A DNA stretch of 64,000 bases from IMG/VR virus record IMGVR_UViG_3300022074_000005, one strand, 5' to 3'. The notes under the pieces were generated by a model. It ran no database searches, was not told the origin of the DNA, and was given only the letters and a program-made list of their open reading frames with translations. The translations under genes were made by a program, and so were the position numbers. Positions within the stretch are counted from its first letter, which is position 1. Each line of letters opens with the position of its first letter. The stretch is from a virus. Positions 5,244-45,691 of the stretch are shown here, piece by piece.

Positions 5244-6335
5244 TTAGTTATATACTATCTTACTATTGATAATATTTTTTATATATTCGCCACCATCTAA
5301 ATTAATATCTGGTATGTCTTGTTCTTTTATTTTATTTGTTTGTCTGATACCTTCAACAAGCATGTCGGCATCTAAATCATTATTTGTTAACCAATGGCAA
5401 CCACCAGCTTTAGAATATGCATCTGCTCTAAAAGGTTCCTCAGTTGCAATGATATTATTATTAACATCATACATTTCAGACGAAGTAGCTTCATTTGGTG
5501 TAACTAATGCTGGTGTTTTAGTTATATTTAAATCTGTAAAAGTCATATATCCTAACATTGTAAAAGCCATTTTATGTATTGATAGATAATCTCTAAATTC
5601 ATTTACACTAGGTCTTTCAATTAAATGTATGCCTCTATTCTCTGCCATAATTCTAATATCTTTTGGTGTCTTTGGTCCAACTATAAATGACATCTTTTGC
5701 CACATCATCTTTTCTTTAACTTGTAAAAACAATCTTTGATAATGATGAGTTAGTTCATACCAATCACCACCTGATACTAATATGCCATCTCTTTTATCTA
5801 TACTAGGTTTTTTATATGGAAGTGTAACATAACCTGTATTATGTATTTCACAATCTATCATTGGTGTTTCATGTAATTGTAAAGTTGCATCTATAAAATT
5901 ATCGTCACCTGCAAAAAATATGCCATCGTAAAATTCATTAAGTCTTTCAGTATAGAAATACATATCCTCTGGTTTAATCCAAGGTATGTCTCTATCTAAA
6001 GAATATATTCTTTTACCTGCTTCTTTTGCATGTTCTAATATATCAAGTATACCGCCATGTTCCCATAGTTCACCTCTTTGCTCTGTCCAAAAGGGGTCCC
6101 AACCATATCGACCAAAAGGATAACCCTCTGTAATAACTACATCTGGGTCATACTCTCTATAGTCTTGATATAGATCGTTATACTCTTTATCTTTACCAAA
6201 GAAGTCTATTGATTTTGATTTACCTGTAAAAGGTCGAGTTATGATAACTCTATCATTTAAATATTCGCCTAATGCGTTTGCTCTACTGATATGTCCATGA
6301 CCAGTATTACTTTGTACTAATATCAAACTCTTCAT
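5244..6335 (-). CDS. GT-B fold glycosyltransferase (COG4671 / GT28 C-terminal-like)
   Basis: GHGHISRA, PDVVITEGYPFGR, ILVSGG and MLGYMT motifs; likely start MKSLILV. Confidence 0.8.
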   Translation of the reverse strand: MKSLILVQSNTGHGHISRANALGEYLNDRVIITRPFTGKSKSIDFFGKDKEYNDLYQDYREYDPDVVITEGYPFGRYGWDPFWTEQRGELWEHGGILDILEHAKEAGKRIYSLDRDIPWIKPEDMYFYTERLNEFYDGIFFAGDDNFIDATLQLHETPMIDCEIHNTGYVTLPYKKPSIDKRDGILVSGGDWYELTHHYQRLFLQVKEKMMWQKMSFIVGPKTPKDIRIMAENRGIHLIERPSVNEFRDYLSIHKMAFTMLGYMTFTDLNITKTPALVTPNEATSSEMYDVNNNIIATEEPFRADAYSKAGGCHWLTNNDLDADMLVEGIRQTNKIKEQDIPDINLDGGEYIKNIINSKIVYN

Positions 6336-6963
6336 AACCAAACTTTTTATAGACAGGCAACTTATGAATATCTGGGTAGTAATCCCAATCTTTTTTCATA
6401 GGTTTTACGTCTTTCACTTTCTCAAAATTTTTTAATCCTATTTTTGCTTTGTGTGGTGTCATATAATAATGATAACCAAACACATCTATATGTTGTTCAT
6501 TCCATGGCACACTTGATCTTGTTCTACCATCGTAACACATTAACCTTAATAAATCAGCATCTTCTTTATTATCTAAAAGTATCATGCCACCTCTGTCTGT
6601 ACTTAAATGTTTTCTATAAAAAAAACTTAAACACATTCTGGTGCCAGGTTCGTAACCATTCTTTTTCCAATACACAGCTGCATCAATAGTTTCTTTTGTT
6701 AGATAATAATACTCATGCCAATGCACATCACCCCATTGAAACTTCCAACCATTTTTAATTAGCATGTTTGGAACTGAAACGTATGTGTGAAATGGAACTT
6801 TGATAGCACGAACTTCTTTACCTTGCTTTTGTTTTTCTAATCTTAAGCAAAGCTCTAAAGCATTTGTGCAACAATCTGTGGCAACCGCATATGGAGCACC
6901 AAAGAATTCTGCGACTTTGTTTTCAAACTCTGTGACGACATGCCACTCGTTTTTTTGCATCAT
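6307..6963 (-). CDS. Short DegT/DnrJ/EryC1/StrS-family PLP sugar aminotransferase
   Basis: FENKVAEFFGAPYAVATDCCTNAL, IDAA, SFFYRKHLSTDRGGMIL (PLP lysine), GYHYYM; 218 aa, lacks the usual C-terminal domain. Confidence 0.85.
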   Translation of the reverse strand: MMQKNEWHVVTEFENKVAEFFGAPYAVATDCCTNALELCLRLEKQKQGKEVRAIKVPFHTYVSVPNMLIKNGWKFQWGDVHWHEYYYLTKETIDAAVYWKKNGYEPGTRMCLSFFYRKHLSTDRGGMILLDNKEDADLLRLMCYDGRTRSSVPWNEQHIDVFGYHYYMTPHKAKIGLKNFEKVKDVKPMKKDWDYYPDIHKLPVYKKFGYEEFDISTK

Positions 6964-13945: not shown

Positions 13946-14656
13946 TTATATCGTAAATGCAAGTAAATTGGATGCTATATAAGTATGTGCTTTTTCACTT
14001 GGGTGACCATCATCTTCCGATATCCACCATCCTTTTTTACCATACTCTTTATTCAATATATCTTGAATATTAAACCCTCCTATTTCAGATATACATGGCC
14101 ACCCATAAAAATCTTTAATCTTATCCGTTAACATATGATTAATAATTTCTTTTGATAGCACAACTTTTGATTGTGTTTTAAAATCATTCGAAAAGTGTTT
14201 TATATGATTACCTGTAAGCAAAGGCATTGCTTGACAAAATGTGTAGTTAATAAAGTTATCTCTACATATAGATTGCATAGCATATATGTAATTTAAATTA
14301 TTATTAATTATTTGTTTTAAATTAGGAAAGTCTTGACTTAAAAATTCATTGTAAAGTTTATTTGCTTTTTCATAGGTGTAATCGTAATCGTTAGTTGTAA
14401 CACTTATTGTTTTCCAATCGGGTTGTGTAAGAAAGTCTTGTCTATCAAATGCAGTCCACATTATATAAACATGTTCTACTTTATTAAGATTGTTTTGTAT
14501 TGCTTGTAAAGTATTATGAAATATTGCTCGATTACCATAACCTGCTTTCGCTGTATTAATGACTTCACATTTTTTTATCTCACCAAGTATTGTTGGCCAT
14601 ACTTTGAAATCATAATAACTTTTATCTGTATAACTACATCCACCTACTATAATCAT
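13946..14656 (-). CDS. SGNH/GDSL-like hydrolase or acyltransferase, paralog 1
   Basis: GGCSYT block I, G-x-GN block II, DGHP block V. Confidence 0.75.
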   Translation of the reverse strand: MIIVGGCSYTDKSYYDFKVWPTILGEIKKCEVINTAKAGYGNRAIFHNTLQAIQNNLNKVEHVYIMWTAFDRQDFLTQPDWKTISVTTNDYDYTYEKANKLYNEFLSQDFPNLKQIINNNLNYIYAMQSICRDNFINYTFCQAMPLLTGNHIKHFSNDFKTQSKVVLSKEIINHMLTDKIKDFYGWPCISEIGGFNIQDILNKEYGKKGWWISEDDGHPSEKAHTYIASNLLAFTI

Positions 14657-15747
14657 GAATTAAACCATTTCTCTATGTCTTTTTTTAAATCTTTTAATTT
14701 TGATTTTCTGTTAATAAAATTATTGTAATTATATTCTAATATATCTAAATTATCTAACACCAACTTTTTTAAATTTTTTGTTCTTAGTTCTTTTACTAAT
14801 TCTACAACAGCATTTATTCTATCGTCAAAATTGTAAATATTATCATATGACTCATCCCATAAATTATTAAATGTTTTATATCCTTGCTGTTTTAAAACTT
14901 TTAATGAGTATTGTGTTCCTACTAAAATAAATGGCATTTTTAACATTATTGCTTTATAAGTTTTTTCAGTTATATTAATACCATTATTAGTATTATCAAT
15001 ACTATGACAAACACTCTCTGTTACAATATTAATACAGTTTTCTCTTGACCAATATGATAAGTCATTGTCTTTAGATGCAAACCCATTATCAATTCTTTGT
15101 TTAAATTTTACATCATAGACTAAATCATAAACTCCATTATTAATACTAGCATTAAAATCCTCTATCATTGGCATCACCTTATACATAAACATACTTTTAG
15201 ATTTTGCAATAGTATTTGAATGTGATCTATTAAGACATAAAAATTTTTTAGGATTATCATCTAATACTTTTACTATTTCTGGTTGATTATGATTTTGTAC
15301 ATACTTTTCAAATATATCCCAATGGTAAGTTTTAATAACATTACTTTTGTATGGTTCACATAAAATATTGTACTTTGAGATAAGTATTTTACATTTATTA
15401 GGTTTTATCCCAGCTTCATTTAATAAAAGAGGATATGTATCAATCCAATTACCACCTGACAAATCAATTTCAGAATCATTAATTATATAAAAACATTTAT
15501 CATTATTAATATCATCTTTTACTTTATCTGGTAATAACTTAAATTCATTGTTTTGTATAATATCATGACTATACTTTCTTACATTATCATAGTAAATATA
15601 TTTTCCTTTAACTTTATCTAAAGTTGTTACAGGATAACCTAATTCTTTATGTAAAGGAATCCAATGATCGCTTACATCACTAAAAAGTCTGTTTTCTTTT
15701 TTTGAGTAAAAATTACGTAAAGATTTATTTTTGAATGCTATAATCAT
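14653..15747 (-). CDS. Putative glycosyltransferase (GT10-like C-terminal region, phage family)
   Basis: KFLCLNR, NIVTES, ITEKTYKAI, PFILVG, GYKTF and WDESYD motifs. Confidence 0.55.
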   Translation of the reverse strand: MIIAFKNKSLRNFYSKKENRLFSDVSDHWIPLHKELGYPVTTLDKVKGKYIYYDNVRKYSHDIIQNNEFKLLPDKVKDDINNDKCFYIINDSEIDLSGGNWIDTYPLLLNEAGIKPNKCKILISKYNILCEPYKSNVIKTYHWDIFEKYVQNHNQPEIVKVLDDNPKKFLCLNRSHSNTIAKSKSMFMYKVMPMIEDFNASINNGVYDLVYDVKFKQRIDNGFASKDNDLSYWSRENCINIVTESVCHSIDNTNNGINITEKTYKAIMLKMPFILVGTQYSLKVLKQQGYKTFNNLWDESYDNIYNFDDRINAVVELVKELRTKNLKKLVLDNLDILEYNYNNFINRKSKLKDLKKDIEKWFNS

Positions 15748-16540
15748 AAAGTTCTTTTGCTATCAACCTGTGTGCTTTTTCGTTAGGGTGTGTATCTTTG
15801 AATGATACTTTATAACCTGTTTCACCCATTGCTCTTTTTAAGAAACTTAAAACATTAAATCCACCAATCTCTGGTACTATCGGCCATCCCCAAAAATTAT
15901 TCTCTTTAATTAAATCACTGGTCTTATGTTCTATTAATTTTATTGCGATTGCATTATCTCTTTTATGATTGTCATTTGTAAAATGAAATGCTGGTATTGG
16001 TTTGATTGCTTGTGCAAACGTATATGGTATGTTTAGATTTTCACATATGGATTGCATTGAATATATGTAATTTAAATTAGTATCTATAAGATTATCTAAG
16101 TTTGGGTATGCATGTTTAATAGTGCCAGAAAAATTAAAAGACTTTCTATACCACAATTGTGTTTTATCATATTCATCATTCTCAGCTCTAGGTATCATAG
16201 TGTCAAATCTTTTTGTTATCTTTGTTCTACTACCATCTGCTTGAGTTATGTGATATGAATAATCATTAAGTAAAAAATCTTGTCTTGCCCATTCTGACCA
16301 CATTACATATACATGTTTTATATTATCTTTATTTTTTATTATTGCATCTAAAGTTTCATGATAGATTGCCATATTACCAAATCCACATCTAGCAGTATTA
16401 ATAACTTCACAATCATATAGTTCACCTATAACTTCTGGCCACATTTTAAAATGTAAAGGTTTTGGTTTTGCTCTACTAGGATAGTTCTTATCTGTAAAAC
16501 TACAACCACCAACTATTATTTTATCGGAATACTTTGACAT
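15725..16540 (-). CDS. SGNH/GDSL-like hydrolase or acyltransferase, paralog 2
   Basis: GGCSFT, GFGN, DTHP; collinear with 13946..14656; likely start MSKYSDK. Confidence 0.75.
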   Translation of the reverse strand: MSKYSDKIIVGGCSFTDKNYPSRAKPKPLHFKMWPEVIGELYDCEVINTARCGFGNMAIYHETLDAIIKNKDNIKHVYVMWSEWARQDFLLNDYSYHITQADGSRTKITKRFDTMIPRAENDEYDKTQLWYRKSFNFSGTIKHAYPNLDNLIDTNLNYIYSMQSICENLNIPYTFAQAIKPIPAFHFTNDNHKRDNAIAIKLIEHKTSDLIKENNFWGWPIVPEIGGFNVLSFLKRAMGETGYKVSFKDTHPNEKAHRLIAKELYDYSIQK

Positions 16541-17852
16541 TATATTTCTTTTCAAAACTTTCTGCATGAGTAACATTATTAACTATAGGTTTACCTCTTA
16601 TGTTTAAGGATGTATTTAATAACATAGGACAACCTGTTTGACTATACCACTCTTCTAGTATAGGTCTTAATATACTTATATTATCTTTCTCAACACATTG
16701 AACTCTAGCGGTACCGTCAACGTGTGTGACTGATTTATAATCGTGTCTTGCTTTAGATACAAACTGCATATACCTATTCTTTCTACCAACAAAGTAATCA
16801 TCAAAGTATTCTTCCAATATTGCTGGTGCGAAAGGTCTAAACTTTTGTCTTTGTTTAACTTCATTTACTGTATCTTTAATATCTAGTCTAGGGTCTGCTA
16901 ATAAACTTCTATTACCTAATGCTCTTGGTCCAAACTCTGCTCTTCCGTTTGCAACTCCACAAAGTTTATGTTCTAGTAAATGTTTTACGATTTCTTTAGG
17001 GTTTAATTCTTTTATTATATTGTGACCTAAGTATGGGTGTCGCCATCTTATTTTTTTCTTTTCTATCAAAGCAGCTGCACCTAGACTTGAACCTGCATCA
17101 CCAGGTGATGGCATAATCCAAACATTAAAACGATCTGGTATCTTACTATTTGCAACACAATTTAAAGCACAACCACCCATGATTACTATGTTATTATAGT
17201 CACAATATTTTAATAGTTCTAAAAACTTTGTTTCATATAAATTTTGTACACTAGCTGCTAAATCATTAGGGTGTGCTCGTGGAAATATTTTACCAACACC
17301 TCTATGATTATTTTTATGTAATAGATATTCTAAATCATACTTTGGTTCTCCAAATGCAGCCATACCCATTGTGATATATTCATCTTCATTTGGTTTTAAT
17401 CCTATTCTTCTTGTAATCGCTGAATACAATAATCCTAGTGAATATGGATAGTTCCATGTTTTTAATTTTGTTAACTTATCATCTTTACCTTCCCATATTG
17501 ATATTGTATTCCATTCACCTATTGCGTCTATGACCAAAACATTACATTCGTTAAATGGTGAAGTATAATAACCTGCAGCTGCATGGGTTTCATGATGACC
17601 AAAGTAATAGTCATATTTTCTATCAGGCCATTTCATTCTTTGACCTGCAAACAATCTTCTTGTATTTTTTAAAAATGGTTTTTCATAAAACGCAGTATTA
17701 TCATAATGTAAAGGTAAAAGGTTAGGATTAAAGTTAGGGTCTCCTTTTATCTTTGAGTATCTTTCACAATGATTAGCATAAATTATTTCTCTTCCATTAA
17801 TTACTGTAATAGCTGCATCATGAAATCCTGCTGATATTCCTACATTAATCAT
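16521..17852 (-). CDS. O-carbamoyltransferase (NodU/CmcH/TobZ family), compact form
   Basis: GFHDAA, HHETHAA, DAIGE, GGCALN, PGDAG, GRAEFGPRALGNRS, RPFAP, HVDGTARVQ, LNTSLN. Confidence 0.95.
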   Translation of the reverse strand: MINVGISAGFHDAAITVINGREIIYANHCERYSKIKGDPNFNPNLLPLHYDNTAFYEKPFLKNTRRLFAGQRMKWPDRKYDYYFGHHETHAAAGYYTSPFNECNVLVIDAIGEWNTISIWEGKDDKLTKLKTWNYPYSLGLLYSAITRRIGLKPNEDEYITMGMAAFGEPKYDLEYLLHKNNHRGVGKIFPRAHPNDLAASVQNLYETKFLELLKYCDYNNIVIMGGCALNCVANSKIPDRFNVWIMPSPGDAGSSLGAAALIEKKKIRWRHPYLGHNIIKELNPKEIVKHLLEHKLCGVANGRAEFGPRALGNRSLLADPRLDIKDTVNEVKQRQKFRPFAPAILEEYFDDYFVGRKNRYMQFVSKARHDYKSVTHVDGTARVQCVEKDNISILRPILEEWYSQTGCPMLLNTSLNIRGKPIVNNVTHAESFEKKYNVKVFR

Positions 17853-18127
17853 TTGTTTACCTTACAATTAAACTGACATATATCTATTGGGTCTTCAAAA
17901 CTTTTTGGTAAATCTTTTTGAAACCAATCTTTGTGTGTAATATTTTTTATACTATCATTTTCTAAATTATATCTATCTTTGTTATCATGATACTTTGTCA
18001 ATAGTTGATGTTTTGCTTTATTTGGTTTACCATATTGATCACTAGCAAGATAACAACAAGGCCAAACTTGACCATCTGGGTTTATCATAGTTTTAGTTGT
18101 GCCTTCCAAAAATTTACACTTTATCAT
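17849..18127 (-). CDS. Stand-alone SPASM/twitch Fe-S domain
   Basis: KC...INPDGQVWPCCY...ICQFNC; own GAGG SD. Confidence 0.75.
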   Translation of the reverse strand: MIKCKFLEGTTKTMINPDGQVWPCCYLASDQYGKPNKAKHQLLTKYHDNKDRYNLENDSIKNITHKDWFQKDLPKSFEDPIDICQFNCKVNK

Positions 18128-18860
18128 CTGCAGCCTCTAGATATTCCTCTTCACCCTTTTCATTAATAAAATAAAATCTATTAGATTTATTATGATTAAA
18201 TATATGAGTAGGATTTGAATTAGGGATAGAATTTTCAAATCTATCACTAGGATAAAACTCATGATTTGCTGAACCATATTTTTTTACTAAATCTAATATA
18301 TCTTTTTTATATTCTTGATTGTGTTTAAATAATATTGTTTGAGATAATGCTTTTCCTTGAGTTTGTGAAAACATATACATATGATCTAAAGATTTTTTTA
18401 ATGATGTGCCTCTTCTATACTTTTGATGCATTTCCTCTGTGGTGCCATCTATATCAAATATAATAGTAAGTCTCTCCCCACAATAAACACCTAAGTTCCA
18501 ATAAAACTCTTCATTACGTAAACTACCATTTGTTGTTATTAGTACATTTGCTTTTGAATTATCAATAATATAGTGACATATTTTTTCTATGTCTTTTGCC
18601 ATCATTGAGTCTCCCCAAGTGCTAGTAAACCCATACTCTTCTATATCATCTAAAGTTTCTTTTGGAAAATATTTTATAAATTTTTCTACTGGCCAAGATA
18701 TAATTGGTAACCAATCAACAGCACCTAAACCATTTGGATTAGTTCTATCACATTGAGGACACCTAGCATTACAACGATTAGTTATCGCAATGTCAATTCT
18801 TTTTGATAAACTTTGACCTAAGTCTATCATCTCTTGAGGATGTTGTAAAAAGTTTGGCAT
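18114..18860 (-). CDS. Radical SAM core domain (partner of the adjacent SPASM ORF)
   Basis: ITNRCNARCPQC, ITTNG, FDIDG, YRRG, LFKHNQ. Confidence 0.85.
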   Translation of the reverse strand: MPNFLQHPQEMIDLGQSLSKRIDIAITNRCNARCPQCDRTNPNGLGAVDWLPIISWPVEKFIKYFPKETLDDIEEYGFTSTWGDSMMAKDIEKICHYIIDNSKANVLITTNGSLRNEEFYWNLGVYCGERLTIIFDIDGTTEEMHQKYRRGTSLKKSLDHMYMFSQTQGKALSQTILFKHNQEYKKDILDLVKKYGSANHEFYPSDRFENSIPNSNPTHIFNHNKSNRFYFINEKGEEEYLEAADDKV

Positions 18861-25915: not shown

Positions 25916-26430
25916 TTTTGTAATATAACGAGATTGTTAACAGTTAATATCTTTCTAGCTTGTTTGTATGAGTTAACCCAATCATCTACAAACTTTGTGA
26001 CATCCTCTGATAATTTGTAATCATGAAATATTGCATAACCATTTTCTTCTAAATTATCCCAATAGTTCATAGTATCTTTTCTGACACTTGTAAAACTATG
26101 TTCACCATCAATAAGTAGTGTGCCAAACATTTTTTTTGTTGTCCATTTATGAGAGTCCTCTTGAACATGCATAAATCTTTCTATGTAAGACATTGGTAAA
26201 TATTTCATAACATTTTTTAATTTAAATTTTATATCGATTGATACAACTTTTCTATCCGTATCTTTTGTTGCATCCAATAATATAACCGTAGAACCACCTT
26301 GACCTATTTCAAGGATATCGCCATAAGTTTTTGTTAGTATGAAGTTGTCGAGGAAAGTATATTCCTCGTCACACATTTGTTTAATTGGATTAAACCATTC
26401 CAGCTTCGAATTTTCGCCATTCAATCGCAT
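25909..26430 (-). CDS. Class I SAM methyltransferase (Methyltransf_24-like)
   Basis: LEIG, VSID, LIDGEHS, FHDY; true start may be downstream of 26430. Confidence 0.8.
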   Translation of the reverse strand: MRLNGENSKLEWFNPIKQMCDEEYTFLDNFILTKTYGDILEIGQGGSTVILLDATKDTDRKVVSIDIKFKLKNVMKYLPMSYIERFMHVQEDSHKWTTKKMFGTLLIDGEHSFTSVRKDTMNYWDNLEENGYAIFHDYKLSEDVTKFVDDWVNSYKQARKILTVNNLVILQKC

Positions 26431-26818
26431 TTTTTATATCCCACCCTCTAGATTGAATTGACCTTTGGACACCTTCTAAAAATTTAACAGTTGTTTCTAG
26501 ATACACTATTTTATTTTTTGCGTCAATAACTTCTTGGTCAGATTCAATATAAATGTTTAAATCTGTTTTTAAAACTTTTAAGTCAAATGGTTTTGATGCA
26601 TAAACTTTAGCATCTGATTTACCACCATAATATTCCCATTTGTCTCGGTACATTTTCGTATATTCACCTTTTGCTTTCGCAAGTAAGAATTCAAAGTTAG
26701 TTTTGTAATCAAGATACTTTGCATACAGGTCTTGATTACGTAAACTTTCTGTATCTAAATGTTCTTTATCTACAGGTAAGTCTTTATATGTTTGTTTTTT
26801 TAAATCATCTAACGTCAT
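26390..26818 (-). CDS. uvsY: UvsY recombination mediator
   Basis: LDTESL, KWEYYGGK, IKNAIEWRKF. Confidence 0.93.
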   Translation of the reverse strand: MTLDDLKKQTYKDLPVDKEHLDTESLRNQDLYAKYLDYKTNFEFLLAKAKGEYTKMYRDKWEYYGGKSDAKVYASKPFDLKVLKTDLNIYIESDQEVIDAKNKIVYLETTVKFLEGVQRSIQSRGWDIKNAIEWRKFEAGMV

Positions 26819-27851
26819 TTGTTTGTTCCCATTTGTATGCTTCTATTACGTGATTTAAAGCATCTAAAAAATGTTCATCACCTGGTTTTGGTTCTATTTC
26901 TTTTTGTTTTCTTAACTCTTGTTCTACTGAACTACCTATTACATTTCCTAAGATATGTCTATCTGAATGTGGTCTATCAATAAAAGCAGCTTCAAAGTAT
27001 GAATAGATATCTCCTCTAGGGTCAATTGCTATTTTTACTTGTGGTGATTGTTTTCTTGTTAATTGTTTGTAATTAACAGATAATAATTTATTCATTCTAC
27101 CTTCAAGTAATGCTACTAAAGCATAACCATAATCAATATTTAATAATCTTTTTTTTGCTTCCTCATCAAACTCTAAAAGTTTTTCTCTTAATTTATTTCT
27201 GTCGTCAATAGGATATTGAAAAGAAAAATCCTCTCGTAATGATAAAGTGTGAACGCCACCAATATCATCTATGTAATTAAATATCTTATGCAAGTTTTCA
27301 AACTCTGTAGGTAATAAAACATGATTAATATGTAATGGTGGTTTAGTTACATTTAATTTATTATAATCTTTAAGATTTTTTTTAACAACACGAAACGCTT
27401 TATTGTTTTTAGTTGTTGACGTAGTTTGATTTTCATCATAACCATATAATGATATACGAAAATGATCTACTGTTAATAGATTAGGATTTTTTTCTATAAA
27501 TCTTGGTGTTAACATAAAACCATTTGTAATAAATCTAACTTTATAACCTCTAACATGTAAGTCTTTACAAAGTCTGTCTATTTCATTATACGTAAGTGGT
27601 TCTAGTCCACCACCTATATTATATCTGTATGGATTATCACCTGGGTCTTGATCTAAAAGTGTATCGTAAAAATAATTGTAGTTTGGTTCTCTGGCGTCAT
27701 AGTTTCGCCCACAAAACGTACATTCGAACATGCAGCTAGTGCCAGGGAAAAGATTAATATTTTTAGGAAATTTGTAAACACCATCTATTGCAGCTTGTAT
27801 ATGCCCCGTATCTATTAAGGGTTGGATTGTTCTATAATATGATTTATCCAT
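26805..27851 (-). CDS. desII: DesII-like radical SAM NDP-4-amino-4,6-dideoxyhexose ammonia-lyase
   Basis: FPGTSCMFECTFC, GGGLEPLT, RISLYG, REDFS, IDYGYAL, PQV, GDIYSYFEAAF and GDEHFLD match Streptomyces DesII motifs, recalled from memory, in order; likely start MDKSYY. Confidence 0.85.
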   Translation of the reverse strand: MDKSYYRTIQPLIDTGHIQAAIDGVYKFPKNINLFPGTSCMFECTFCGRNYDAREPNYNYFYDTLLDQDPGDNPYRYNIGGGLEPLTYNEIDRLCKDLHVRGYKVRFITNGFMLTPRFIEKNPNLLTVDHFRISLYGYDENQTTSTTKNNKAFRVVKKNLKDYNKLNVTKPPLHINHVLLPTEFENLHKIFNYIDDIGGVHTLSLREDFSFQYPIDDRNKLREKLLEFDEEAKKRLLNIDYGYALVALLEGRMNKLLSVNYKQLTRKQSPQVKIAIDPRGDIYSYFEAAFIDRPHSDRHILGNVIGSSVEQELRKQKEIEPKPGDEHFLDALNHVIEAYKWEQTNDVR

Positions 27852-28479
27852 TGGAATCACTTGATATTTTTTGTATAACAGGTACAACTCTATTATTCAC
27901 TTTCATTGTTTTTCTATTAATAGGAAAAACTTCATTTATGGGTTCTACAAAATCAAAACTGTAAATACAACTATGTCTAGTTGCAAATTGCATTGGCATA
28001 ACTTTATCAAATTCCATACACCAATTCCAAAGTTCGATATGTCTATAATGATTGATTATATAGATTTTTGGTGGATTTGTCAAGGAATAATCTAGGTTAT
28101 ACTCTGGCCCAACGTTGTCCATAATAATATCGTAAGGTTTATCAAATACAGGTGTCTCTATAGCATCTTGTAATTTAAATTCATACTTACCATCGTAAGA
28201 AAATAAATCTTTATACTTGTCTTGTAATGCTATTGAATTATGATGTCTATAATAAAAACTTTTGTCTATGTTTAAACACTCTTTAACGTTGTTACCGTAT
28301 TGTGCTATAAAAAAATCTAAATTAGGACCACCACCGATACACTTAACAGTTTCTACATTTTTAAATAGATTGTTAAGTATTTCGTATTGTTCTAATTCAA
28401 AATCCCAAAAGTTATTTTTATTGTCTTTGTATAGATTATATATTTCTGTCCACTTGACATTCACAATTGTTACACTCAC
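27844..28479 (-). CDS. Hypothetical protein, possible divergent class I methyltransferase
   Basis: CIGGGPNLD, NID and YDIIMD resemble SAM motifs; GTG start. Confidence 0.55.
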   Translation of the reverse strand: MSVTIVNVKWTEIYNLYKDNKNNFWDFELEQYEILNNLFKNVETVKCIGGGPNLDFFIAQYGNNVKECLNIDKSFYYRHHNSIALQDKYKDLFSYDGKYEFKLQDAIETPVFDKPYDIIMDNVGPEYNLDYSLTNPPKIYIINHYRHIELWNWCMEFDKVMPMQFATRHSCIYSFDFVEPINEVFPINRKTMKVNNRVVPVIQKISSDSNG

Positions 28480-28505: not shown

Positions 28506-28535
28506 ATTATACTCTTTAACCAGTTCATTTGTCAA
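28506..28535 (-). promoter_or_regulatory. Sigma70-type promoter for the desII-uvsY-uvsW unit
   Basis: TTGACA-N18-TATAAT, bracketed by a 14-bp direct repeat (28495-28508 and 28541-28554). Confidence 0.75.
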
Positions 28536-29144: not shown

Positions 29145-29176
29145 AAAATAAAAAGGGGGCCGAAGCCCCCTTTTTT
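29145..29176 (-). terminator. Intrinsic terminator after gp23
   Basis: GGGGGC-UUCG-GCCCCC followed by UUUUUAUUUU. Confidence 0.92.
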
Positions 29177-29198
29177 GAATTTGGTGTTTTAACCAAGA

Positions 29199-38418: not shown

Positions 38419-40049
38419 TACCAATCTGTATCCTTATCTCTAACAACTGGTGACCATCTAGTACCATATTCATCTACTGATTCTCCTATCTCTTCATTAC
38501 CATCTAATATAAAACCAAATGGTGTCATATCTTGCTCTATTCTATCTTGATTATCTGCATACATTCTTTTTCTAATATCTTGATCTGTTAACTCTTTAAA
38601 ATATCTTTGATCTGTTGCCCAGGAAAATAAAACTAAACACATTACTAAATCATCATTGCTACCTTCCTCTGCTTGAAATTGATTACCACGAACTATGTAA
38701 GTTGATAATTCATTTATTATATCAAAATCATCTACGAGTAGTTTATCTGTTTCTAATAATTGTTTTAAGTTAGAACATCCTACTTTTTTAACTGACTTTG
38801 TTGTTCTTACACCTAATTGTGCTTTACCACCAGAAAATCCACTACCCATAACTTGACCAGCACGTCCTCTCATATAACACATAATTATATTATCATATTC
38901 TAAATCAAAATGTAAGTTGTTTGATACTTGCTCTCCTATATCATTTACTTCAACTAAAACATATGCATGATTATATGCCCTAGCAACATGATGTATTTTA
39001 TGTGGAAATAATAAAGGTTTTATTTCGTTATCTTTAAATGATGCAACTACTTTATATGGTATTTCTGAAACATCAATAACAGTAAATGCTGATGCATCGT
39101 TTTTAGTTCCACGTGCAACGTCAGCTGTTACAACATAAGTGTGATCTTTTTTAGGATTTTCATAAACATTTAATCCCTCATGTTTTACAATAGGTTCTTT
39201 GTAAGTCATTTGTCTTAATTTTGCAGAGTTAACAAGTGTATTAGTAGAACCTAAAAACTCACATTCAAACTCTGTTTGGAATTGTTGTTCACTTGTATTT
39301 GAGATAGTTTCTTGTTTCCATTTTTCATCTCTACCTGGTACTTCCGACCAATGTACTTCTATAGGTACATAAGTGTTTCTTTTATATTGTGCATCATTCC
39401 ATAATTTATAGAACATATTCATACCATGTGGTGTAGATACAATAATTACTTTTGTTGTTTTACCAGAAGAGATTGTAGGATAAACTGAACTAAAAAATTG
39501 TTCAGCAACATTTGATGGTACATATGCAAACTCATCAAGAAATATTATATTGTATGAACCTCCTCTAACTGCTGATGCTGATGTAGATGATGCTAGTATT
39601 TTACTTCCATTTTCTAATTCTAAACTTCCTTTGTTCCATGACATTACTCCTTGTTGTAACCATTTAGGTAAGTTTTCGTATGCGAGTTGTAATCTACCTA
39701 ATAAGTCTCTAGCAGTTGCAGCTTTGTTTGCAAGTATCGCTATGTTAACACTAGGATTAAATAATGCATAATGTAAAAGATAAGCAATCATAACAGTTGA
39801 TTTACCTGATTGTCTAGGAAGTTTGCAAATAGTAAATCTATTACTATGAAAAGTACCAATCATTTCTTTTTGGAAATTATAAGGTTTAAACTTGACTAAT
39901 CCCTCGTCAAGTGATATAATCTTTATGTAGTTCGTGATAAAGTATAAAGGGTCATTCATACATTTTTGATATTCTTCAATCTCAGCTTGTGACCACTCTT
40001 TAGGTTGATTAGCTTTTTTTAGATTTGGATTACCTAGATAACTTTCCAT
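38418..40049 (-). CDS. gp17: Terminase large subunit (gp17)
   Basis: YLGNPNLK, PRQSGKS, FLDEFA, STPHG, ADVARG, DDLVM. Confidence 0.98.
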   Translation of the reverse strand: MESYLGNPNLKKANQPKEWSQAEIEEYQKCMNDPLYFITNYIKIISLDEGLVKFKPYNFQKEMIGTFHSNRFTICKLPRQSGKSTVMIAYLLHYALFNPSVNIAILANKAATARDLLGRLQLAYENLPKWLQQGVMSWNKGSLELENGSKILASSTSASAVRGGSYNIIFLDEFAYVPSNVAEQFFSSVYPTISSGKTTKVIIVSTPHGMNMFYKLWNDAQYKRNTYVPIEVHWSEVPGRDEKWKQETISNTSEQQFQTEFECEFLGSTNTLVNSAKLRQMTYKEPIVKHEGLNVYENPKKDHTYVVTADVARGTKNDASAFTVIDVSEIPYKVVASFKDNEIKPLLFPHKIHHVARAYNHAYVLVEVNDIGEQVSNNLHFDLEYDNIIMCYMRGRAGQVMGSGFSGGKAQLGVRTTKSVKKVGCSNLKQLLETDKLLVDDFDIINELSTYIVRGNQFQAEEGSNDDLVMCLVLFSWATDQRYFKELTDQDIRKRMYADNQDRIEQDMTPFGFILDGNEEIGESVDEYGTRWSPVVRDKDTDW

Positions 40050-41001
40050 TTACATAAACCTCTTTATATCTATTTGTGTTTTTCATTTTAGAAGAACATT
40101 TTGATTTACAAAAATCTGGCACATCGCCATTTGTAATTTTATCAAAAAAATCTTTCCATGCTTTACTATTTACTATATCTTTTACTTTATTATTATTTAG
40201 ATTGTTGCTAGCATCTAATAATGGTTCATATCTTTTATCAACTTGTTCACTATGTAATACGTCTGCATCTAACCAACAACACGGTAATACTTGTTTTGTT
40301 GTTGATACGTATGGCAATCTTTCTTGAGTCATGTATGTATCATCTAACATACTTAAACACTTTGGTCTAAACTCTTCTTTTTCTTTCTCTATTTTTTCTT
40401 TGAATTTTTTATTTTTTGGTTCTAAAAAATCATTAGTTCTACCAGAGTAATTTAATTCTAAAGTAACTCCAATATCTTTTGCCATTTGTATTGCTTGTGT
40501 TATCTTATCTTCATTATAACTAAAAACAATATATTGCCATTTACAATCTATACCCATTTCACTAGCAGTTTTCATTACTTCAAATAATTTTTCACCATCT
40601 TGATTTTGTCTGTAAACAAAACTTTGATATGGAAGACCATCTATACCAAAACGCCATTCTGCTTTTGGATGAGCTCTAAATGCATCAATATAAAACTCTA
40701 TAGGTTTTTGTGAGGCTGCATTACTAATAGATACATGAACATTTTTAGAACATGCAATACGAAGCATTTCAATTAGATTAGGATTAAATATAGGGTCACC
40801 AAATGTACCATTAAGAGTTAATGCTGAAAAGTGATCAGTTAAGTCTTTCCATTCATCAATTGTTAAATCGCCACCAGGTATATCTTTAGTTTTGTAATCC
40901 CAAATAGAACGAGCACATTGAGAACATTGCAATGTACATTTATTTGTAATATCTAAATCTAAACCTCTATTTTTAAAACCATCATTTTTATAATCAATCA
41001 T
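40030..41001 (-). CDS. Radical SAM/SPASM(twitch) enzyme between gp16 and gp17
   Basis: ITNKCTLQCSQC, FGIDG, WQYIVF, PKC...PCCW...CKSKC. Confidence 0.88.
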   Translation of the reverse strand: MIDYKNDGFKNRGLDLDITNKCTLQCSQCARSIWDYKTKDIPGGDLTIDEWKDLTDHFSALTLNGTFGDPIFNPNLIEMLRIACSKNVHVSISNAASQKPIEFYIDAFRAHPKAEWRFGIDGLPYQSFVYRQNQDGEKLFEVMKTASEMGIDCKWQYIVFSYNEDKITQAIQMAKDIGVTLELNYSGRTNDFLEPKNKKFKEKIEKEKEEFRPKCLSMLDDTYMTQERLPYVSTTKQVLPCCWLDADVLHSEQVDKRYEPLLDASNNLNNNKVKDIVNSKAWKDFFDKITNGDVPDFCKSKCSSKMKNTNRYKEVYVNGKLSR

Positions 41002-41404
41002 CCTTTTTCTTTTTCAATAGTTTTTGTAGTTCGGCTGTTGAACCTACATACAAAGCATTAGTTACATTTTTGGGAGCATTGTTAGGAACTTCTTTTAATT
41101 TTTTCATCTTCTCTTGTAGATCACCAAGTTTTTCTGTTACCTCAGAAACTTGTTTAATTAAATTACCAGCAACTTCGTATGCTCTTGGATGGTCAGAGTT
41201 TTGAGCAATATCTAATATTCCTTGTATTGCGTCTTGTCCTCTTTCAACTAAATTGTAAAAATTTTCTCTTTGATACTTGTAATCAGAATCTATATCTTCA
41301 TCTTCTTTTGGTCTAGGAATAACTTTTTTAGGTTCTGATTTTATAAGTTCTTTATCTTTAACACCTAAAGCATCGTTTATTATTTCATCTATTTTATCAG
41401 CCAT
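40994..41404 (-). CDS. gp16: Terminase small subunit (gp16)
   Basis: DYKYQREN, HPRAYEVAG, NALYVGSTAELQK. Confidence 0.95.
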   Translation of the reverse strand: MADKIDEIINDALGVKDKELIKSEPKKVIPRPKEDEDIDSDYKYQRENFYNLVERGQDAIQGILDIAQNSDHPRAYEVAGNLIKQVSEVTEKLGDLQEKMKKLKEVPNNAPKNVTNALYVGSTAELQKLLKKKKDD

Positions 41405-42254
41405 TTAAAAAATACCTTTTCATTTTTGCATCGTCTTGATCAAGATTTATACCACATCGCTTTCTGCAAACTTCTGGTGGATTAGTTTTTAATTTATTAT
41501 TAAATGTTTTCCACGTATTAGAGTTTACTATTTCTTTAACAGTATTTATTTTCAAATTTAAAGTACTATCATATAATTCTGAAACTTGTTGTTTATGTGA
41601 GTCTAACCAACAACATGGTAATACATTACCACCAGCTGCATAATACATATTTGTTTTATTCTCTAAACATCTTGGTCTTATTTTAGGTGACATGTTATAT
41701 TTTAATTTTACATTCTTACCCTCAGCATCGGTATTTGTTTCTAACAACTGTAATCTTATATCATGATCTTTAGCTAATTTATATGCATCTAATTGATATT
41801 TCTCATTGTAAGGAAAAACTATATACTGCCACTCTACATCTATACCAAGTTTTTTTGCATCTAACATTCTTTGAAATAAAAACTCACCATCTTGATTTTT
41901 TCTATATTGATGTGATTGATGAGGTAGACCATCAATTCCAAAAACCCAATGAGCATGTAAGTTTGATTGAAACGCTTCATCATATACACTTTTCTTTTTA
42001 TGATTGGCTGCGTTATGAATACGAACATGTTTTTTTCGTATGTAACATAGTTTTAGTAATTGATTTAGTTTTGTGTGATAGATTGGGTCTGATTGACCAC
42101 CACACATATCTATGATATCAAACTCATCAAGAATTTTTTCAAACTCGTCTATTGTTATTTCACTTTTAACAATAGTATAGTTTTCATCTTGACGATTACA
42201 ACCACCACATTTAAGAGTACACTTATGTGTTATATCTAAATTTATTTCTTTCAT
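41397..42254 (-). CDS. Radical SAM/SPASM(twitch) enzyme between gp15 and gp16
   Basis: ITHKCTLKCGGC, FGIDGLP, WQYIVF, PRC...PCCW...CRKRC; paralog of 40030..41001. Confidence 0.88.
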   Translation of the reverse strand: MKEINLDITHKCTLKCGGCNRQDENYTIVKSEITIDEFEKILDEFDIIDMCGGQSDPIYHTKLNQLLKLCYIRKKHVRIHNAANHKKKSVYDEAFQSNLHAHWVFGIDGLPHQSHQYRKNQDGEFLFQRMLDAKKLGIDVEWQYIVFPYNEKYQLDAYKLAKDHDIRLQLLETNTDAEGKNVKLKYNMSPKIRPRCLENKTNMYYAAGGNVLPCCWLDSHKQQVSELYDSTLNLKINTVKEIVNSNTWKTFNNKLKTNPPEVCRKRCGINLDQDDAKMKRYFLNG

Positions 42255-44072: not shown

Positions 44073-44885
44073 TTAACCCTTCATTATTAGATCGGGGTAT
44101 TGCATGTTTTGTATTTGTTCTTCTAGTCTAGTTATTTCTTCTTGAGCTTGAGTAAATATTTGTTCACCATTCATAGTGACACCACCTAACATTTGAACCT
44201 CATTGAACTTAGACAAGTTTTGACCCCATTGTTTTTTTATTAATGCAGTTGCATATCTTTTAAGATGCATATCGTTAAATAAATCTGTATATGTGGCAGG
44301 GTCAAGCTTTCTATAACATTCAATAATTAAATAATCATTTTCGCTTATGTCATTTGTCCAATCCATATCAATATATAATCTTCTTTGATGTTCATAAAAT
44401 CTTAATGGACTTTCGCCTACCAATAAATGTGACAAGTAATCTAAATGTTGCATTGTCATTTCGTAATGTATAATACTTGTTGAAGAAAAATCATACAGGT
44501 CATTCAATCTTAATTGATATCTTATATCAAACATATTATTAGTAGCTGCGTTATCAAAACTAAAAATGTTTAGTACTGAAACTACTGAGTCAGGCATAGG
44601 GATGAAGTTTTTACCTTCTTGAAAAGATGCTGTGATTGAACTATCTGCAACGTCTGTCGCAGTTGTAGTTATATTTTCACTACCTCTAGTTATGTCTGCT
44701 GATGTAATTTTATATTTAAGATACATCTTCTCAATACCATCGTAATAGTAATGAGAAAAATATTGTAGTGCTTCGTCTAATCTATCGTCTGCTTGATCGT
44801 CTGTTATATTGATTTGTACAGCACCTTTACCTAAATTTCTTAGGCAATATTCTTTTAATGTACTCTTTGAATTTGGAATGGCCAT
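44073..44885 (-). CDS. gp13: Neck protein (gp13)
   Basis: LKEYCLRNLG, YATALIKKQWGQNLSKF, GGVTMNG. Confidence 0.95.
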   Translation of the reverse strand: MAIPNSKSTLKEYCLRNLGKGAVQINITDDQADDRLDEALQYFSHYYYDGIEKMYLKYKITSADITRGSENITTTATDVADSSITASFQEGKNFIPMPDSVVSVLNIFSFDNAATNNMFDIRYQLRLNDLYDFSSTSIIHYEMTMQHLDYLSHLLVGESPLRFYEHQRRLYIDMDWTNDISENDYLIIECYRKLDPATYTDLFNDMHLKRYATALIKKQWGQNLSKFNEVQMLGGVTMNGEQIFTQAQEEITRLEEQIQNMQYPDLIMKG

Positions 44886-45663
44886 GTATTTTTCCTTTTA
44901 AGTATTTATCTAAATCCCTTTTTGGTCGCCATCCCAAAGATAATATGTCCTTGATATTTGCAGTATTATCAAGACTTTCGCCACTATGACCTTCTTTTGT
45001 TGGTATATTTTTAAAGTATTTATCGACCAATTCGTTTACTTTTATGCCTTTTCCACTTGCAATTTCATATGTGTGTTGTGTCCAATCCATATAAAACTCT
45101 TTTCTATATATCAACAATTTTATCGCATCAACAACATCTAACACATGTATAAAATCTCTAGTGTGTTCAGTCTTGTATTCTAGTGTTCCGTCAATCATCT
45201 TTTGAGTTAACATAGTAGGTCTACAACCATCACCAAAAACATTTGTAAATCTTAATCCTATATGTTTACCTGTTGCTTTTGCTACAGCTTCCATTGCTTT
45301 TTTAGAACCTGCATATGGGTTCTTCCACCAATAATGTGCGTTTGATGATGACGCATAAACACATGGTGTTTTATTTTCAGCACACAATTTAAACAAATTT
45401 GTTGACCATTCAACATTTGTTTCGTACCATTTATCTGGGTTATCAAAAGATTTACGTACATCTGCTAGAGCTGCCAAATGTACAACTCTGTCAACATCTT
45501 CTAACGTTTCTTTTGTAATATCTTTAAAGTTTCTAATCGCAGGTTGTCCTAATTCATTTCTACCATGCAAATCCCACTTTGAAACTTCGTGGCCATCTAA
45601 TTCTAACTCTTCGACAAGATTACGACCTATAAATCCTTGAGAGCCAGTTACTAATATTTTCAT
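44827..45663 (-). CDS. NAD-dependent NDP-sugar epimerase/dehydratase (extended SDR)
   Basis: VTGSQGFIG, HLAA, YASSS, YAGSK (YxxxK), GLRFTNVFG, RDFIHV; 59-bp overlap with gp13. Confidence 0.92.
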   Translation of the reverse strand: MKILVTGSQGFIGRNLVEELELDGHEVSKWDLHGRNELGQPAIRNFKDITKETLEDVDRVVHLAALADVRKSFDNPDKWYETNVEWSTNLFKLCAENKTPCVYASSSNAHYWWKNPYAGSKKAMEAVAKATGKHIGLRFTNVFGDGCRPTMLTQKMIDGTLEYKTEHTRDFIHVLDVVDAIKLLIYRKEFYMDWTQHTYEIASGKGIKVNELVDKYFKNIPTKEGHSGESLDNTANIKDILSLGWRPKRDLDKYLKGKIHGHSKFKEYIKRILPKKFR

Positions 45664-45691
45664 TGACAATTCCTATATAAATATCTATAAT
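45663..45691 (+). promoter_or_regulatory. Perfect sigma70 promoter with a late promoter nested in its spacer
   Basis: TTGACA (45663-68)-N17-TATAAT (45686-91); TATAAATA at 45676-83. Confidence 0.85.

What the first reader, a model, noticed from the sequence alone, without database searches (positions are those of the whole stretch)
26805..27851. Phage-encoded minimal DesII radical SAM deaminase
Seen: the motif series YYRTIQPL, FPGTSCMFECTFC, GGGLEPLT, RISLYG, REDFS, IDYGYAL, PQV, YFEAAF, GDEHFLD. Known (from memory): Streptomyces DesII has the same ordered motifs (YPGPTCMFRCHFC, SGGLEPLT, RTSLYG, REDYS, IDYGYAL, PQV, YREAGF, GDEYFMD). It deaminates TDP-4-amino-4,6-dideoxyglucose in macrolide desosamine synthesis. 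This copy is ~348 aa and appears to lack the N-terminal region of the longer actinomycete enzyme. Inference: the virus makes 4,6-dideoxy-3-keto sugars, a rare chemistry for a phage. The gene is co-transcribed with uvsY.
Basis: partly seen in the sequence, partly recalled or inferred. Interest (0 to 1): 0.82.

Follow-up and report, generated by a model that had tools for sequence, protein, structure and literature searches.

The report
Truncated DesII-like radical SAM enzyme in phage
A marine T4-like phage carries a shortened but intact relative of DesII, the iron-sulfur enzyme bacteria use to remove the 4-position oxygen from antibiotic sugars; it belongs to a mostly viral branch of that family and travels with a mini aminotransferase and a glycosyltransferase, so the phage probably makes an unusual deoxy sugar.

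Summary

- **Family:** the best hits by sequence and fold are DesII (PDB 8HZV: E 7.6e-46; TM 0.92-0.95). All cluster, SAM-binding and proposed catalytic residues are kept, including the essential Asp (D456 = D330). About 100 N-terminal residues of DesII are missing.
- **Not an orthologue:** it scores 216 bits on TIGR04426 (cutoff 450). It falls in a separate, well-supported short clade found on viral contigs; one basal member sits in a bacterial island. dN/dS is 0.12-0.17.
- **Partners:** in relatives the gene overlaps or abuts a conserved 218-aa mini-DegT and a GT28-like glycosyltransferase. Phages with near-identical backbones carry the trio between gp44 and gp62. This window keeps mini-DegT and GT there and has its DesII-like gene between a backbone ORF and uvsY, behind a perfect sigma-70 promoter.
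- **Reading:** DesII-type C3-radical chemistry on an NDP-6-deoxyhexose in a phage glycan pathway. Substrate and acceptor are unproven.
- **Earlier notes:** unverified first-reader notes in this scan flagged the trio in another genome (e1-5837078), and follow-up reports described DesII-like genes in bacteria.

Verdict: new variant of a known kind.

The parts
26805..27851 (-). Short DesII-family radical SAM gene (348 aa). Key residues: C40/C44/C47 cluster motif, GGLE 81-84, R132/S134/Y136, D208, E287 (=DesII E408), D330 (=DesII D456).
28506..28535 (-). Perfect sigma-70-type promoter match (TTGACA-18-TATAAT, 12/12) in the gap between the gp3-like gene and the 211-aa ORF. Likely start of the transcript that covers the DesII-like gene and uvsY.
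   Evidence: consensus scan only
27844..28479 (-). 211-aa ORF of unknown function; its stop overlaps the DesII-like ATG by 8 nt. It is a backbone gene that lies directly next to uvsY in relatives without the DesII-like gene. Class I methyltransferase-like by language-model features only.
26390..26818 (-). uvsY recombination mediator; its start overlaps the DesII-like stop by 14 nt. A neighbour, not a functional partner.
6307..6963 (-). Mini-DegT (218 aa), a reduced DegT/DnrJ/EryC1-family protein. It keeps the PLP lysine (SFFYRK) and a DAA motif but lacks an internal segment and the C-terminal domain. It lies next to or near the short DesII-like gene in relatives.
5244..6341 (-). GT-B (Glyco_tran_28_C-like) glycosyltransferase candidate (365 aa) overlapping the mini-DegT. 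It forms the trio with the short DesII-like gene in close relatives.
44827..45669 (-). NAD-dependent NDP-sugar epimerase/dehydratase-family SDR (280 aa). Its homologue lies two genes from a mini-DegT in Flavobacterium phage immuto.
16521..17852 (-). NodU/CmcH-type carbamoyltransferase (443 aa), 48% identical to the one inside the contiguous SDR-DegT-DesII-like-DegT cluster of another phage lineage (L015).

Best explanation
The gene encodes a working, single-cluster radical SAM enzyme of the DesII family, reduced to the catalytic core plus the last two helices of DesII's N-terminal domain. Most likely it binds SAM on a [4Fe-4S] cluster held by C40/C44/C47, generates a 5'-deoxyadenosyl radical, and abstracts the C3 hydrogen of an NDP-6-deoxyhexose. 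If the mini-DegT supplies a 4-amino group, the enzyme would then eliminate ammonia, helped by D330 and E287, and give an NDP-3-keto-4,6-dideoxyhexose. That amounts to C4 deoxygenation, as the DesI/DesII pair does. The sugar would then be finished by other phage enzymes (SDR, carbamoyltransferase, methyltransferases) and transferred by the GT28-like glycosyltransferase to an unknown acceptor, either virion proteins or the host envelope. Shown here: family, fold, residue conservation, purifying selection, and genomic linkage to the mini-DegT and the glycosyltransferase. Inferred: the substrate, the deaminase outcome rather than a dehydrogenase outcome, the nucleotide carrier, and the acceptor.
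For: - **Family and fold.** TIGR04426 is by far the best NCBIfam hit (E 7.7e-64). DesII 8HZV/8HZY are the only PDB sequence hits (E 7.6e-46, residues 107-464). The AF2 model (pLDDT 94) superposes on 8HZV at TM 0.92-0.95 and rmsd 1.7-1.8 A, against 0.59 or less for the next radical SAM enzymes.
- **Residues.** All residues named in the DesII structure paper (PMC11434129) are conserved. D456, whose Ala mutant is inactive, is invariant in 30/30 family members. E408, whose mutants stay active, is present here and variable in the clade.
- **Selection.** dN/dS is 0.12-0.17.
- **Linkage.** Mini-DegT lies immediately downstream and overlapping in 70-81%-identity relatives. Mini-DegT - GT - DesII-like are contiguous between gp44 and gp62 in phages whose backbone is 87-99% identical to this window. 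That phage has no DesII-like gene at its uvsY junction.
- **Family-wide sugar context.** The ~400-aa forms sit between two full-length DegT genes with an SDR and a carbamoyltransferase. Long forms are fused to GFO/IDH/MocA sugar oxidoreductases. The SAR11 homologue lies among GT2, SDR and adh_short genes. DegT lies within 3 kb in 15/38 short-clade, 23/37 other viral and 15/56 cellular loci.
- **N-terminal domain.** The medium forms also lack most of it, so it is dispensable in clearly sugar-linked members.
Against: - It fails the curated equivalog cutoff (216 vs 450 bits), and the short clade scores lowest of all clades.
- It is in a clade separate from the characterised enzyme, so substrate identity cannot be carried over by orthology.
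- About half of short-clade loci show no DegT within 8 kb. One group instead has two other radical SAM genes downstream.
- The mini-DegT is so reduced that aminotransferase activity is uncertain.
- No nucleotidyltransferase and no clear 4,6-dehydratase were identified in the window. The 280-aa SDR is generic.
- No substrate-bound DesII structure exists, so sugar- and nucleotide-binding residues could not be compared.
- Only 64 kb of the genome is available.
Confidence: 0.6

Rival explanations
1. The enzyme uses the same fold and C3-radical start but gives a different outcome. In this reading it acts as a radical SAM dehydrogenase, as DesII does on TDP-quinovose, or as a dehydratase or epimerase on an NDP-hexose. 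It would make a 3-keto sugar that the mini-DegT then aminates, giving a 3-amino-3,6-dideoxy sugar rather than a 4-deoxygenated one.
For: - DesII itself dehydrogenates TDP-quinovose, and the outcome depends on the C4 substituent (PMC11434129).
- The window encodes only one DegT-type protein. The contiguous cluster of the ~400-aa forms has two, as DesI/DesII/DesV logic needs.
- Six positions differ consistently between the short clade and all other family members.
- In Synechococcus phage S-SCSM2R a mini-DegT sits directly before a radical SAM that is not of the DesII family.
Against: The proposed proton-shuttle residues for elimination (E287, D330) are kept. In group B loci the DesII-like gene comes before the DegT gene, and in group C after it, so gene order does not discriminate. 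Nothing tested here separates this reading from the main one.
Confidence: 0.25
2. The short clade has been recruited to a substrate that is not a nucleotide sugar. Candidates are a nucleotide or DNA modification linked to the recombination and replication genes around it, or a peptide or cofactor handled together with the phage's other radical SAM enzymes.
For: - In this window the gene lies between replication and recombination genes.
- In groups D and E it has no sugar genes within 8 kb and is followed by, or near, other radical SAM genes.
- The window has three further radical SAM genes.
- It scores well below the equivalog cutoff.
Against: - The uvsY junction is only an insertion site: relatives have the same junction without the gene.
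- Active-site residues are almost unchanged from DesII.
- Linkage to mini-DegT and the glycosyltransferase recurs in three arrangements.
- Every other branch of the family is embedded in sugar genes.
Confidence: 0.1
3. The gene is a decaying, truncated remnant of a bacterial desII-like gene with no function.
For: It lacks about 100 N-terminal residues compared with DesII.
Against: - dN/dS is 0.12-0.17 over pairs with dS up to 1.5.
- More than 50 distinct cluster representatives of the same length were found.
- All catalytic residues are intact.
- The model is confident and compact.
- The gene has translationally coupled overlaps on both sides.
Confidence: 0.02

Closest known systems
DesII of Streptomyces venezuelae (dTDP-4-amino-4,6-dideoxy-D-glucose ammonia-lyase; TIGR04426; PDB 8HZV/8HZY)
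   Same: It has the same fold over the whole 348 residues (TM 0.92-0.95). It shares the single CX3CX2C cluster and the GGE, ribose and beta-6 SAM motifs. The E408 and D456 equivalents are present. Identity is about 31-35%.
   Different: It lacks about 100 N-terminal residues, roughly four of the six N-domain helices. It scores 216 bits against the 450 cutoff. It belongs to a separate clade and is phage-encoded. Its partner is a 218-aa mini-DegT rather than full-length DesI. No macrolide or antibiotic context is present.
Uncharacterised ~400-aa DesII-like proteins in contiguous phage sugar clusters (e.g. P0069, loci L015-L017)
   Same: They are viral and also lack most of the N-terminal domain. 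They share partner families: DegT, SDR, and a carbamoyltransferase 48% identical to the window's.
   Different: They are only 37-38% identical and fall on the other side of the main split in the tree. Their cluster is contiguous and has two full-length DegT genes.
GFO/IDH/MocA::DesII-like fusions and SAR11 (Pelagibacteraceae) long DesII-like proteins
   Same: They have the same catalytic domain and a sugar-gene context.
   Different: They are cellular, 29-40% identical, keep the N-terminal domain or are fused to an oxidoreductase, and lie in the other clade.
Giant-virus viosamine (4-amino-4,6-dideoxyglucose) pathway (Mimivirus; reviews PMC9614988, PMC10117803, found and not read in full)
   Same: A virus encodes its own route to a rare 4-amino-4,6-dideoxy sugar for its glycans. 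This point rests on my own knowledge plus the titles and abstracts seen.
   Different: Those are eukaryotic giant viruses, and no radical SAM deamination step is described for them. Here the candidate step goes beyond the amino sugar to a 4-deoxygenated one.

Membership tests
DesII (TIGR04426 equivalog, dTDP-4-amino-4,6-dideoxy-D-glucose ammonia-lyase) | CX3CX2C [4Fe-4S] motif and no auxiliary cluster | tested here: met
   C40/C44/C47 align with DesII C141/C145/C148 and are invariant in 30/30 sequences. There is only one further Cys, and no SPASM or twitch hit.
DesII (TIGR04426 equivalog, dTDP-4-amino-4,6-dideoxy-D-glucose ammonia-lyase) | SAM-binding motifs named in the crystal structure: GGE G187-E190; ribose motif R238/S240/Y242; beta-6 D323/Y324 | tested here: met
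   GGLE 81-84, R132/S134/Y136 and D208/F209 are present. Y324 is Phe in most family members.
DesII (TIGR04426 equivalog, dTDP-4-amino-4,6-dideoxy-D-glucose ammonia-lyase) | Proposed catalytic acid/base pair E408 and D456 (D456A is inactive) | tested here: met
   E287 and D330 are present. The D456 equivalent is invariant. The E408 equivalent varies in the short clade, in line with the active E408A/Q mutants.
DesII (TIGR04426 equivalog, dTDP-4-amino-4,6-dideoxy-D-glucose ammonia-lyase) | Score at or above the curated equivalog cutoff (450 bits) | tested here: not met
   The window's protein scores 216 bits. Other short-clade members score 216-229, medium forms 331, marine long forms 343-350, a fusion 405. 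Only the actinomycete representative P0147 passes, at 723.
DesII (TIGR04426 equivalog, dTDP-4-amino-4,6-dideoxy-D-glucose ammonia-lyase) | Three-domain architecture with the N-terminal six-helix domain (residues 1-131) | tested here: not met
   The alignment begins at DesII residue 107. The model has only two N-terminal helices (3-14, 17-23). No upstream coding space exists, and the upstream ORF shows no similarity to DesII N-domains.
DesII (TIGR04426 equivalog, dTDP-4-amino-4,6-dideoxy-D-glucose ammonia-lyase) | Overall fold match to the solved DesII structure | tested here: met
   Foldseek against 8HZV gives TMq 0.92-0.95, rmsd 1.7-1.8 A and E 2e-30. The next family scores TMq 0.59 or less.
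DesII (TIGR04426 equivalog, dTDP-4-amino-4,6-dideoxy-D-glucose ammonia-lyase) | Phylogenetic placement with the characterised enzyme | tested here: not met
   The short clade (SH-aLRT 98) is separated from the clade holding P0147, the fusions, and the medium and long forms (SH-aLRT 97). This was a quick IQ-TREE search, and the root depends on very distant outgroups.
DesII (TIGR04426 equivalog, dTDP-4-amino-4,6-dideoxy-D-glucose ammonia-lyase) | Genomic pairing with a DegT-family (DesI-like) 4-aminotransferase | tested here: inconclusive
   A mini-DegT is adjacent in groups B and C, and present about 20 kb away in this window. It is truncated, its regiochemistry is unknown, and it is absent within 8 kb in groups D and E.
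DesII (TIGR04426 equivalog, dTDP-4-amino-4,6-dideoxy-D-glucose ammonia-lyase) | SAM-dependent deamination of TDP-4-amino-4,6-dideoxy-D-glucose | not testable with these tools
   This needs an anaerobic enzyme assay.
Radical SAM superfamily (PF04055) | Pfam gathering score | tested here: met
   47.9 bits against a cutoff of 29.5, residues 36-190.

The most novel reading that the evidence does not exclude
The short DesII-like enzyme, the 218-aa mini-DegT and the GT28-like transferase form a portable, virus-specific three-gene module. The module would carry out radical C4 deoxygenation, or 3-keto/3-amino formation, on an NDP-6-deoxyhexose and attach the product to a phage or host-surface acceptor. 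That glycan chemistry has not been described for any virus. It would run on two drastically minimised enzymes: a DesII without its N-domain, and a DegT without its C-domain.
Probability: 0.35. Interest if true: 0.75.

Novelty: new variant of a known kind. Interest (0 to 1): 0.6.

Why it matters
- **Enzymology.** DesII is a much-studied model for radical-mediated deamination versus dehydrogenation, yet no substrate-bound structure exists (PMC11434129). A naturally minimal 348-aa form, predicted to fold compactly, shows that the N-terminal domain is dispensable. It offers a simpler protein for structural and mechanistic work.
- **Phage biology.** It adds radical SAM sugar deoxygenation to the list of auxiliary functions of abundant marine T4-like phages. 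It also gives a concrete, testable handle on what the scattered sugar and radical SAM genes of pelagimyophages do. Those genes have so far been noted only generically (PMC7029224).
- **Gene linkage.** The complementary placement of the gene in near-identical phage backbones is a clean natural example of a module that is split yet kept together within one genome.

Tried and rejected
- **Own-genome search.** No genome is held for this window, so partners were sought by local tblastn.
- **Isolated phages.** tblastn of the protein against 50,697 phage records found nothing. BFVD viral structures gave no close match. The family is therefore known in viruses only from metagenomic contigs.
- **Is the upstream 211-aa ORF a detached DesII N-domain?** No. 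BLASTP shows no similarity.
- **Are the 211-aa ORF and the TylF-like methyltransferase dedicated partners?** Rejected. Both flank uvsY in relatives that lack the DesII-like gene at that site.
- **Structure of the 211-aa ORF.** The model was poor (pLDDT 54), so no fold search was run. 'Methyltransferase-like' remains only an atlas lead.
- **Is the L007 330-aa ORF a homologue of the window's 365-aa GT?** No similarity.
- **Pseudogene reading.** Rejected on dN/dS.
- **TDP- or sugar-contact residues.** The DesII paper and its supplement list none, so those positions could not be compared.
- **Literature.** Searches for DesII plus phage, and for desosamine plus phage plus radical SAM, gave nothing relevant. 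Two searches failed on term syntax.
- **Limit of the cellular-genome scan.** It is pattern-based and would miss short-clade members with variant motifs, so 'virus-restricted' is provisional. IMG/VR classes one group D contig as a provirus.
Full report
**Observation.** The window is AT-rich (about 29-38% GC) and almost wholly transcribed on the minus strand. An ORF runs from an ATG at 27851 to a stop at 26805 and gives 348 aa. An in-frame TTG at 27887 would add only 12 residues. The motifs it recalled for Streptomyces DesII are correct, as the printed alignment to PDB 8HZV shows.

**Genome context.** The window comes from a T4-like phage. Its neighbours are the gp22 scaffold, gp23 capsid, a gp3/tail-tube-like gene, UvsY, UvsW, the gp44/gp62/gp45 clamp system, RegA, and the small and large terminase subunits. 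The capsid gene is 76-79% identical in DNA to Pelagibacter phages Mosig and HTVC008M and to Methylophilales phage Melnitz. The host is therefore probably SAR11 or OM43, but that is not shown.

**Family.**
- Pfam sees only the generic radical SAM domain.
- In NCBIfam the DesII equivalog model TIGR04426 is the best hit by over 170 bits (216 bits, E 7.7e-64), covering profile positions 89-449 of 468. The curated cutoff is 450.
- The only solved structures matched by sequence are DesII 8HZV and 8HZY (E 7.6e-46), aligned from chain residue 107 to 464.
- An AlphaFold2 model built on a 30-sequence family alignment is confident (pLDDT 94, pTM 0.91). It superposes on DesII at TM 0.92-0.95 and rmsd 1.7-1.8 A. 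The next radical SAM enzymes (SuiB, BlsE, anSME, viperins) reach TM 0.59 or less.

**Residues.** The DesII structure paper (PMC11434129) names these residues: C141/C145/C148, the GGE motif 187-190, the ribose motif R238/S240/Y242, the beta-6 residues D323/Y324, the proposed proton shuttle E408 (E408A/Q still active), and D456 (D456A inactive). In the window's protein they correspond to C40/C44/C47, G81-E84, R132/S134/Y136, D208/F209, E287 and D330. The D456 equivalent is invariant in all 30 aligned family members. The E408 equivalent varies within the short clade, matching its dispensability. Only six columns separate the short clade consistently from the rest of the family.

**Truncation.** DesII has an N-terminal domain of six helices (residues 1-131). 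The phage protein keeps only the last two (model helices 3-14 and 17-23). These carry the conserved YW-x-T-I-x-P segment shared by the whole family. The missing part is not encoded upstream. The preceding 211-aa ORF is in another frame, overlaps the ATG by 8 nt, and shows no similarity to DesII N-domains.

The gene is not decaying. dN/dS against relatives is 0.12-0.17, with dS up to about 1.5. More than 50 cluster representatives of about 348 aa exist in marine metagenomes.

**Place in the family.** The family is small: 45 clusters at 50% identity with E<1e-30 among 1.8 billion representatives. Four architectures occur:

| Form | Length | Position of the first Cys of the CX3CX2C motif |
|---|---|---|
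| Short | ~348 aa | ~40-45 |
| Medium | 394-400 aa | 53 |
| Canonical | 460-540 aa | 117-176 |
| Fusion, with an N-terminal GFO/IDH/MocA oxidoreductase domain | 750-900 aa | ~400-540 |

A quick maximum-likelihood tree of 97 sequences puts the short forms in one clade (SH-aLRT 98). All other forms, including the S. venezuelae-type representative P0147, fall in a second clade (SH-aLRT 97). The root rests on very distant outgroups, so 'separate clade' is solid but 'sister to all others' is provisional.

TIGR04426 scores agree with this. Only P0147 passes (723 bits). A fusion scores 405, marine long forms 343-350, medium forms 331, and short forms 216-229.

**Who carries it.** A pattern-seeded scan of one genome per prokaryotic species found 66 loci, none above 38% identity to the window's protein. 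They include many Pelagibacteraceae single-cell genomes, actinomycetes and Acidobacteriota. The same alignment scanned against IMG/VR found 22 viral contigs at 51-99% identity and about 30 more at 31-38%, some on 260-345-kb contigs.

No record among 50,697 deposited phage genomes matches, and no BFVD viral structure is close. The basal short-clade member P0061 lies in a bacterial integrase-bearing island. One group D contig is classed as a provirus. The short clade is therefore essentially viral and mobile, with the caveat that the cellular scan depends on motif patterns.

**Partners.** Local tblastn of window proteins against all fetched loci sorts the short-clade loci into five arrangements.

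| Group | Identity to the window's protein | Arrangement |
|---|---|---|
| A (includes the window) | 91-99% | gp3-like - 211-aa ORF - DesII-like - UvsY - Methyltransf_24 - UvsW |
| B | 70-81% | DesII-like, then an overlapping 208-215-aa DegT-family ORF (61% identical to window 6307-6963), an unknown 330-aa ORF and a further radical SAM, next to RNR |
| C | 51-53% | gp45 - gp44 - mini-DegT (82-85% identical to the window's) - GT (73-83% in four of five loci) - DesII-like - gp62 - regA; in L104 the GT homologue (47%) lies after the DesII-like gene |
| D | 52-53% | DesII-like followed by two other radical SAM genes |
| E | 51-53% | DesII-like alone among small ORFs |

The group C backbone genes are 87-99% identical to the window's. 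The window has gp44 - mini-DegT - GT - gp62 at that same junction, without the DesII-like gene. Conversely, the group C phage G001 has a single DesII-like gene, and its gp3-like - 211-aa ORF - UvsY - methyltransferase - UvsW junction lacks one. The same is true of a complete 147-kb relative.

So the 211-aa ORF, uvsY and the methyltransferase are backbone, and the DesII-like gene is an insertion. Near-identical phages keep one DesII-like gene plus mini-DegT plus GT, with the DesII-like gene at either of two sites. This is the strongest evidence for a functional trio.

**The partner proteins.**
- **Mini-DegT (218 aa).** It passes the Pfam DegT_DnrJ_EryC1 threshold (81 bits). It aligns to perosamine synthase with its SFFYRK lysine on the PLP lysine, and it keeps a DAA motif. 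It lacks roughly 40 internal residues and the whole C-terminal domain. This form is conserved in all nine short copies from phage loci. Similar mini-DegTs lie in glycosyltransferase-rich clusters of Synechococcus phage S-SCSM2R and Flavobacterium phage immuto.
- **The 365-aa ORF.** It has no Pfam hit of its own. It resembles Glyco_tran_28_C clusters by language-model features (0.96), and its 42-43%-identical homologues carry PF04101.
- **Other sugar genes in the window.** The window encodes an NDP-sugar SDR whose homologue lies two genes from the immuto mini-DegT. It also encodes a NodU/CmcH carbamoyltransferase 48% identical to the one in the contiguous carbamoyltransferase - SDR - DegT - unknown - DesII-like - DegT cluster of the medium forms.
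- **SAR11 homologue.** It lies among GT2, SDR, HAD and adh_short genes.

**Expression.** A 12/12 sigma-70 consensus lies at 28535-28506 on the minus strand, just upstream of the 211-aa ORF. The ORFs from there to uvsW overlap or abut, and no minus-strand terminator was found between them. Co-transcription with uvsY, probably early, is therefore likely. This rests on consensus scans only.

**Mechanism and rivals.**
- **Main reading (0.6).** DesII-type C3 hydrogen abstraction on an NDP-6-deoxyhexose in a phage glycan pathway, most simply deamination of a 4-amino-4,6-dideoxy sugar made by the mini-DegT.
- **Rival 1 (0.25).** The same radical start with a dehydrogenase or other outcome. It cannot be separated from the main reading here. 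DesII itself does both reactions, and the window has only one DegT-type gene.
- **Rival 2 (0.1).** A non-sugar substrate. This is less likely given the residue conservation and the sugar context of every branch of the family.
- **Rival 3 (0.02).** A remnant. This is excluded by selection.

**Novelty.** The pelagimyophage survey mentions radical SAM cassettes and LPS-type genes only generically (PMC7029224). No paper in the library links DesII to phages. Other first-reader notes in this scan, all unverified, had flagged the same stretch, the mini-DegT/GT pair and the trio in another genome. I reached the trio independently and tested it.

The gene is a new, truncated, largely virus-borne variant of a known enzyme family. 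It is not a new kind of system.

Noticed in passing
window 40030-41001 (-) and 41397-42254 (-): Two further radical SAM genes bracket the small terminase gene in the order gp15 - rSAM - gp16 - rSAM - gp17. One has a SPASM domain and the other a twitch-like C-terminal hit. These are unusual insertions inside the packaging module.
   Followed up: partly
window 13946-18860 (-): A run of genes: a weak GDSL-like ORF, two unknown ORFs (364 and 283 aa; the latter is 26% identical to an ORF of the L015 sugar cluster), a NodU/CmcH carbamoyltransferase, a 92-aa ORF and a 248-aa radical SAM. It looks like a second sugar-tailoring island.
   Followed up: partly
window 6307-6963 (-): The 218-aa 'mini-DegT' is a conserved, drastically shortened DegT-family protein that keeps the PLP lysine. 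Similar proteins (31-47% identity) occur in Synechococcus phage S-SCSM2R, Flavobacterium phage immuto and two ~600-kb uncultured phages. Whether such a short form can still work as an aminotransferase is an open question in its own right.
   Followed up: partly
window 29149-29177: A strong GC-rich hairpin (11 pairs) is flanked by A and T runs just after the gp23 stop. It looks like a bidirectional intrinsic terminator ending the capsid transcript.
   Followed up: no
window 45712-47425 (+): These are the only sizeable plus-strand genes in the window (297 and 279 aa). They are divergent from the NDP-sugar SDR and have no Pfam or NCBIfam hit. Another first-reader note calls them glycosyltransferase paralogs; I did not verify that.
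   Followed up: no
window 10238-11437 (-): An AAA_5 (MoxR/CobS-like) ATPase. The L015 phage locus with the medium DesII-like form carries the matching DUF2201 (CobT-like) gene, consistent with both being marine myophages.
   Followed up: no
L011-L014, L019-L022 (short-clade groups D and E): These contigs, classed as viral or proviral, carry the short DesII-like gene near genes for isocitrate lyase, glutamine synthetase, FTR1, Clp protease, ribosomal protein L33 and Asp/Asn hydroxylase, plus several other radical SAM genes. It is unclear whether they are large phages with many auxiliary genes or include cellular DNA.
   Followed up: no
window 28055-28083 (-): A second perfect 12/12 sigma-70 consensus lies inside the 211-aa ORF, about 200 nt upstream of the DesII-like start. 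It could be an internal promoter or a chance match in AT-rich DNA.
   Followed up: no
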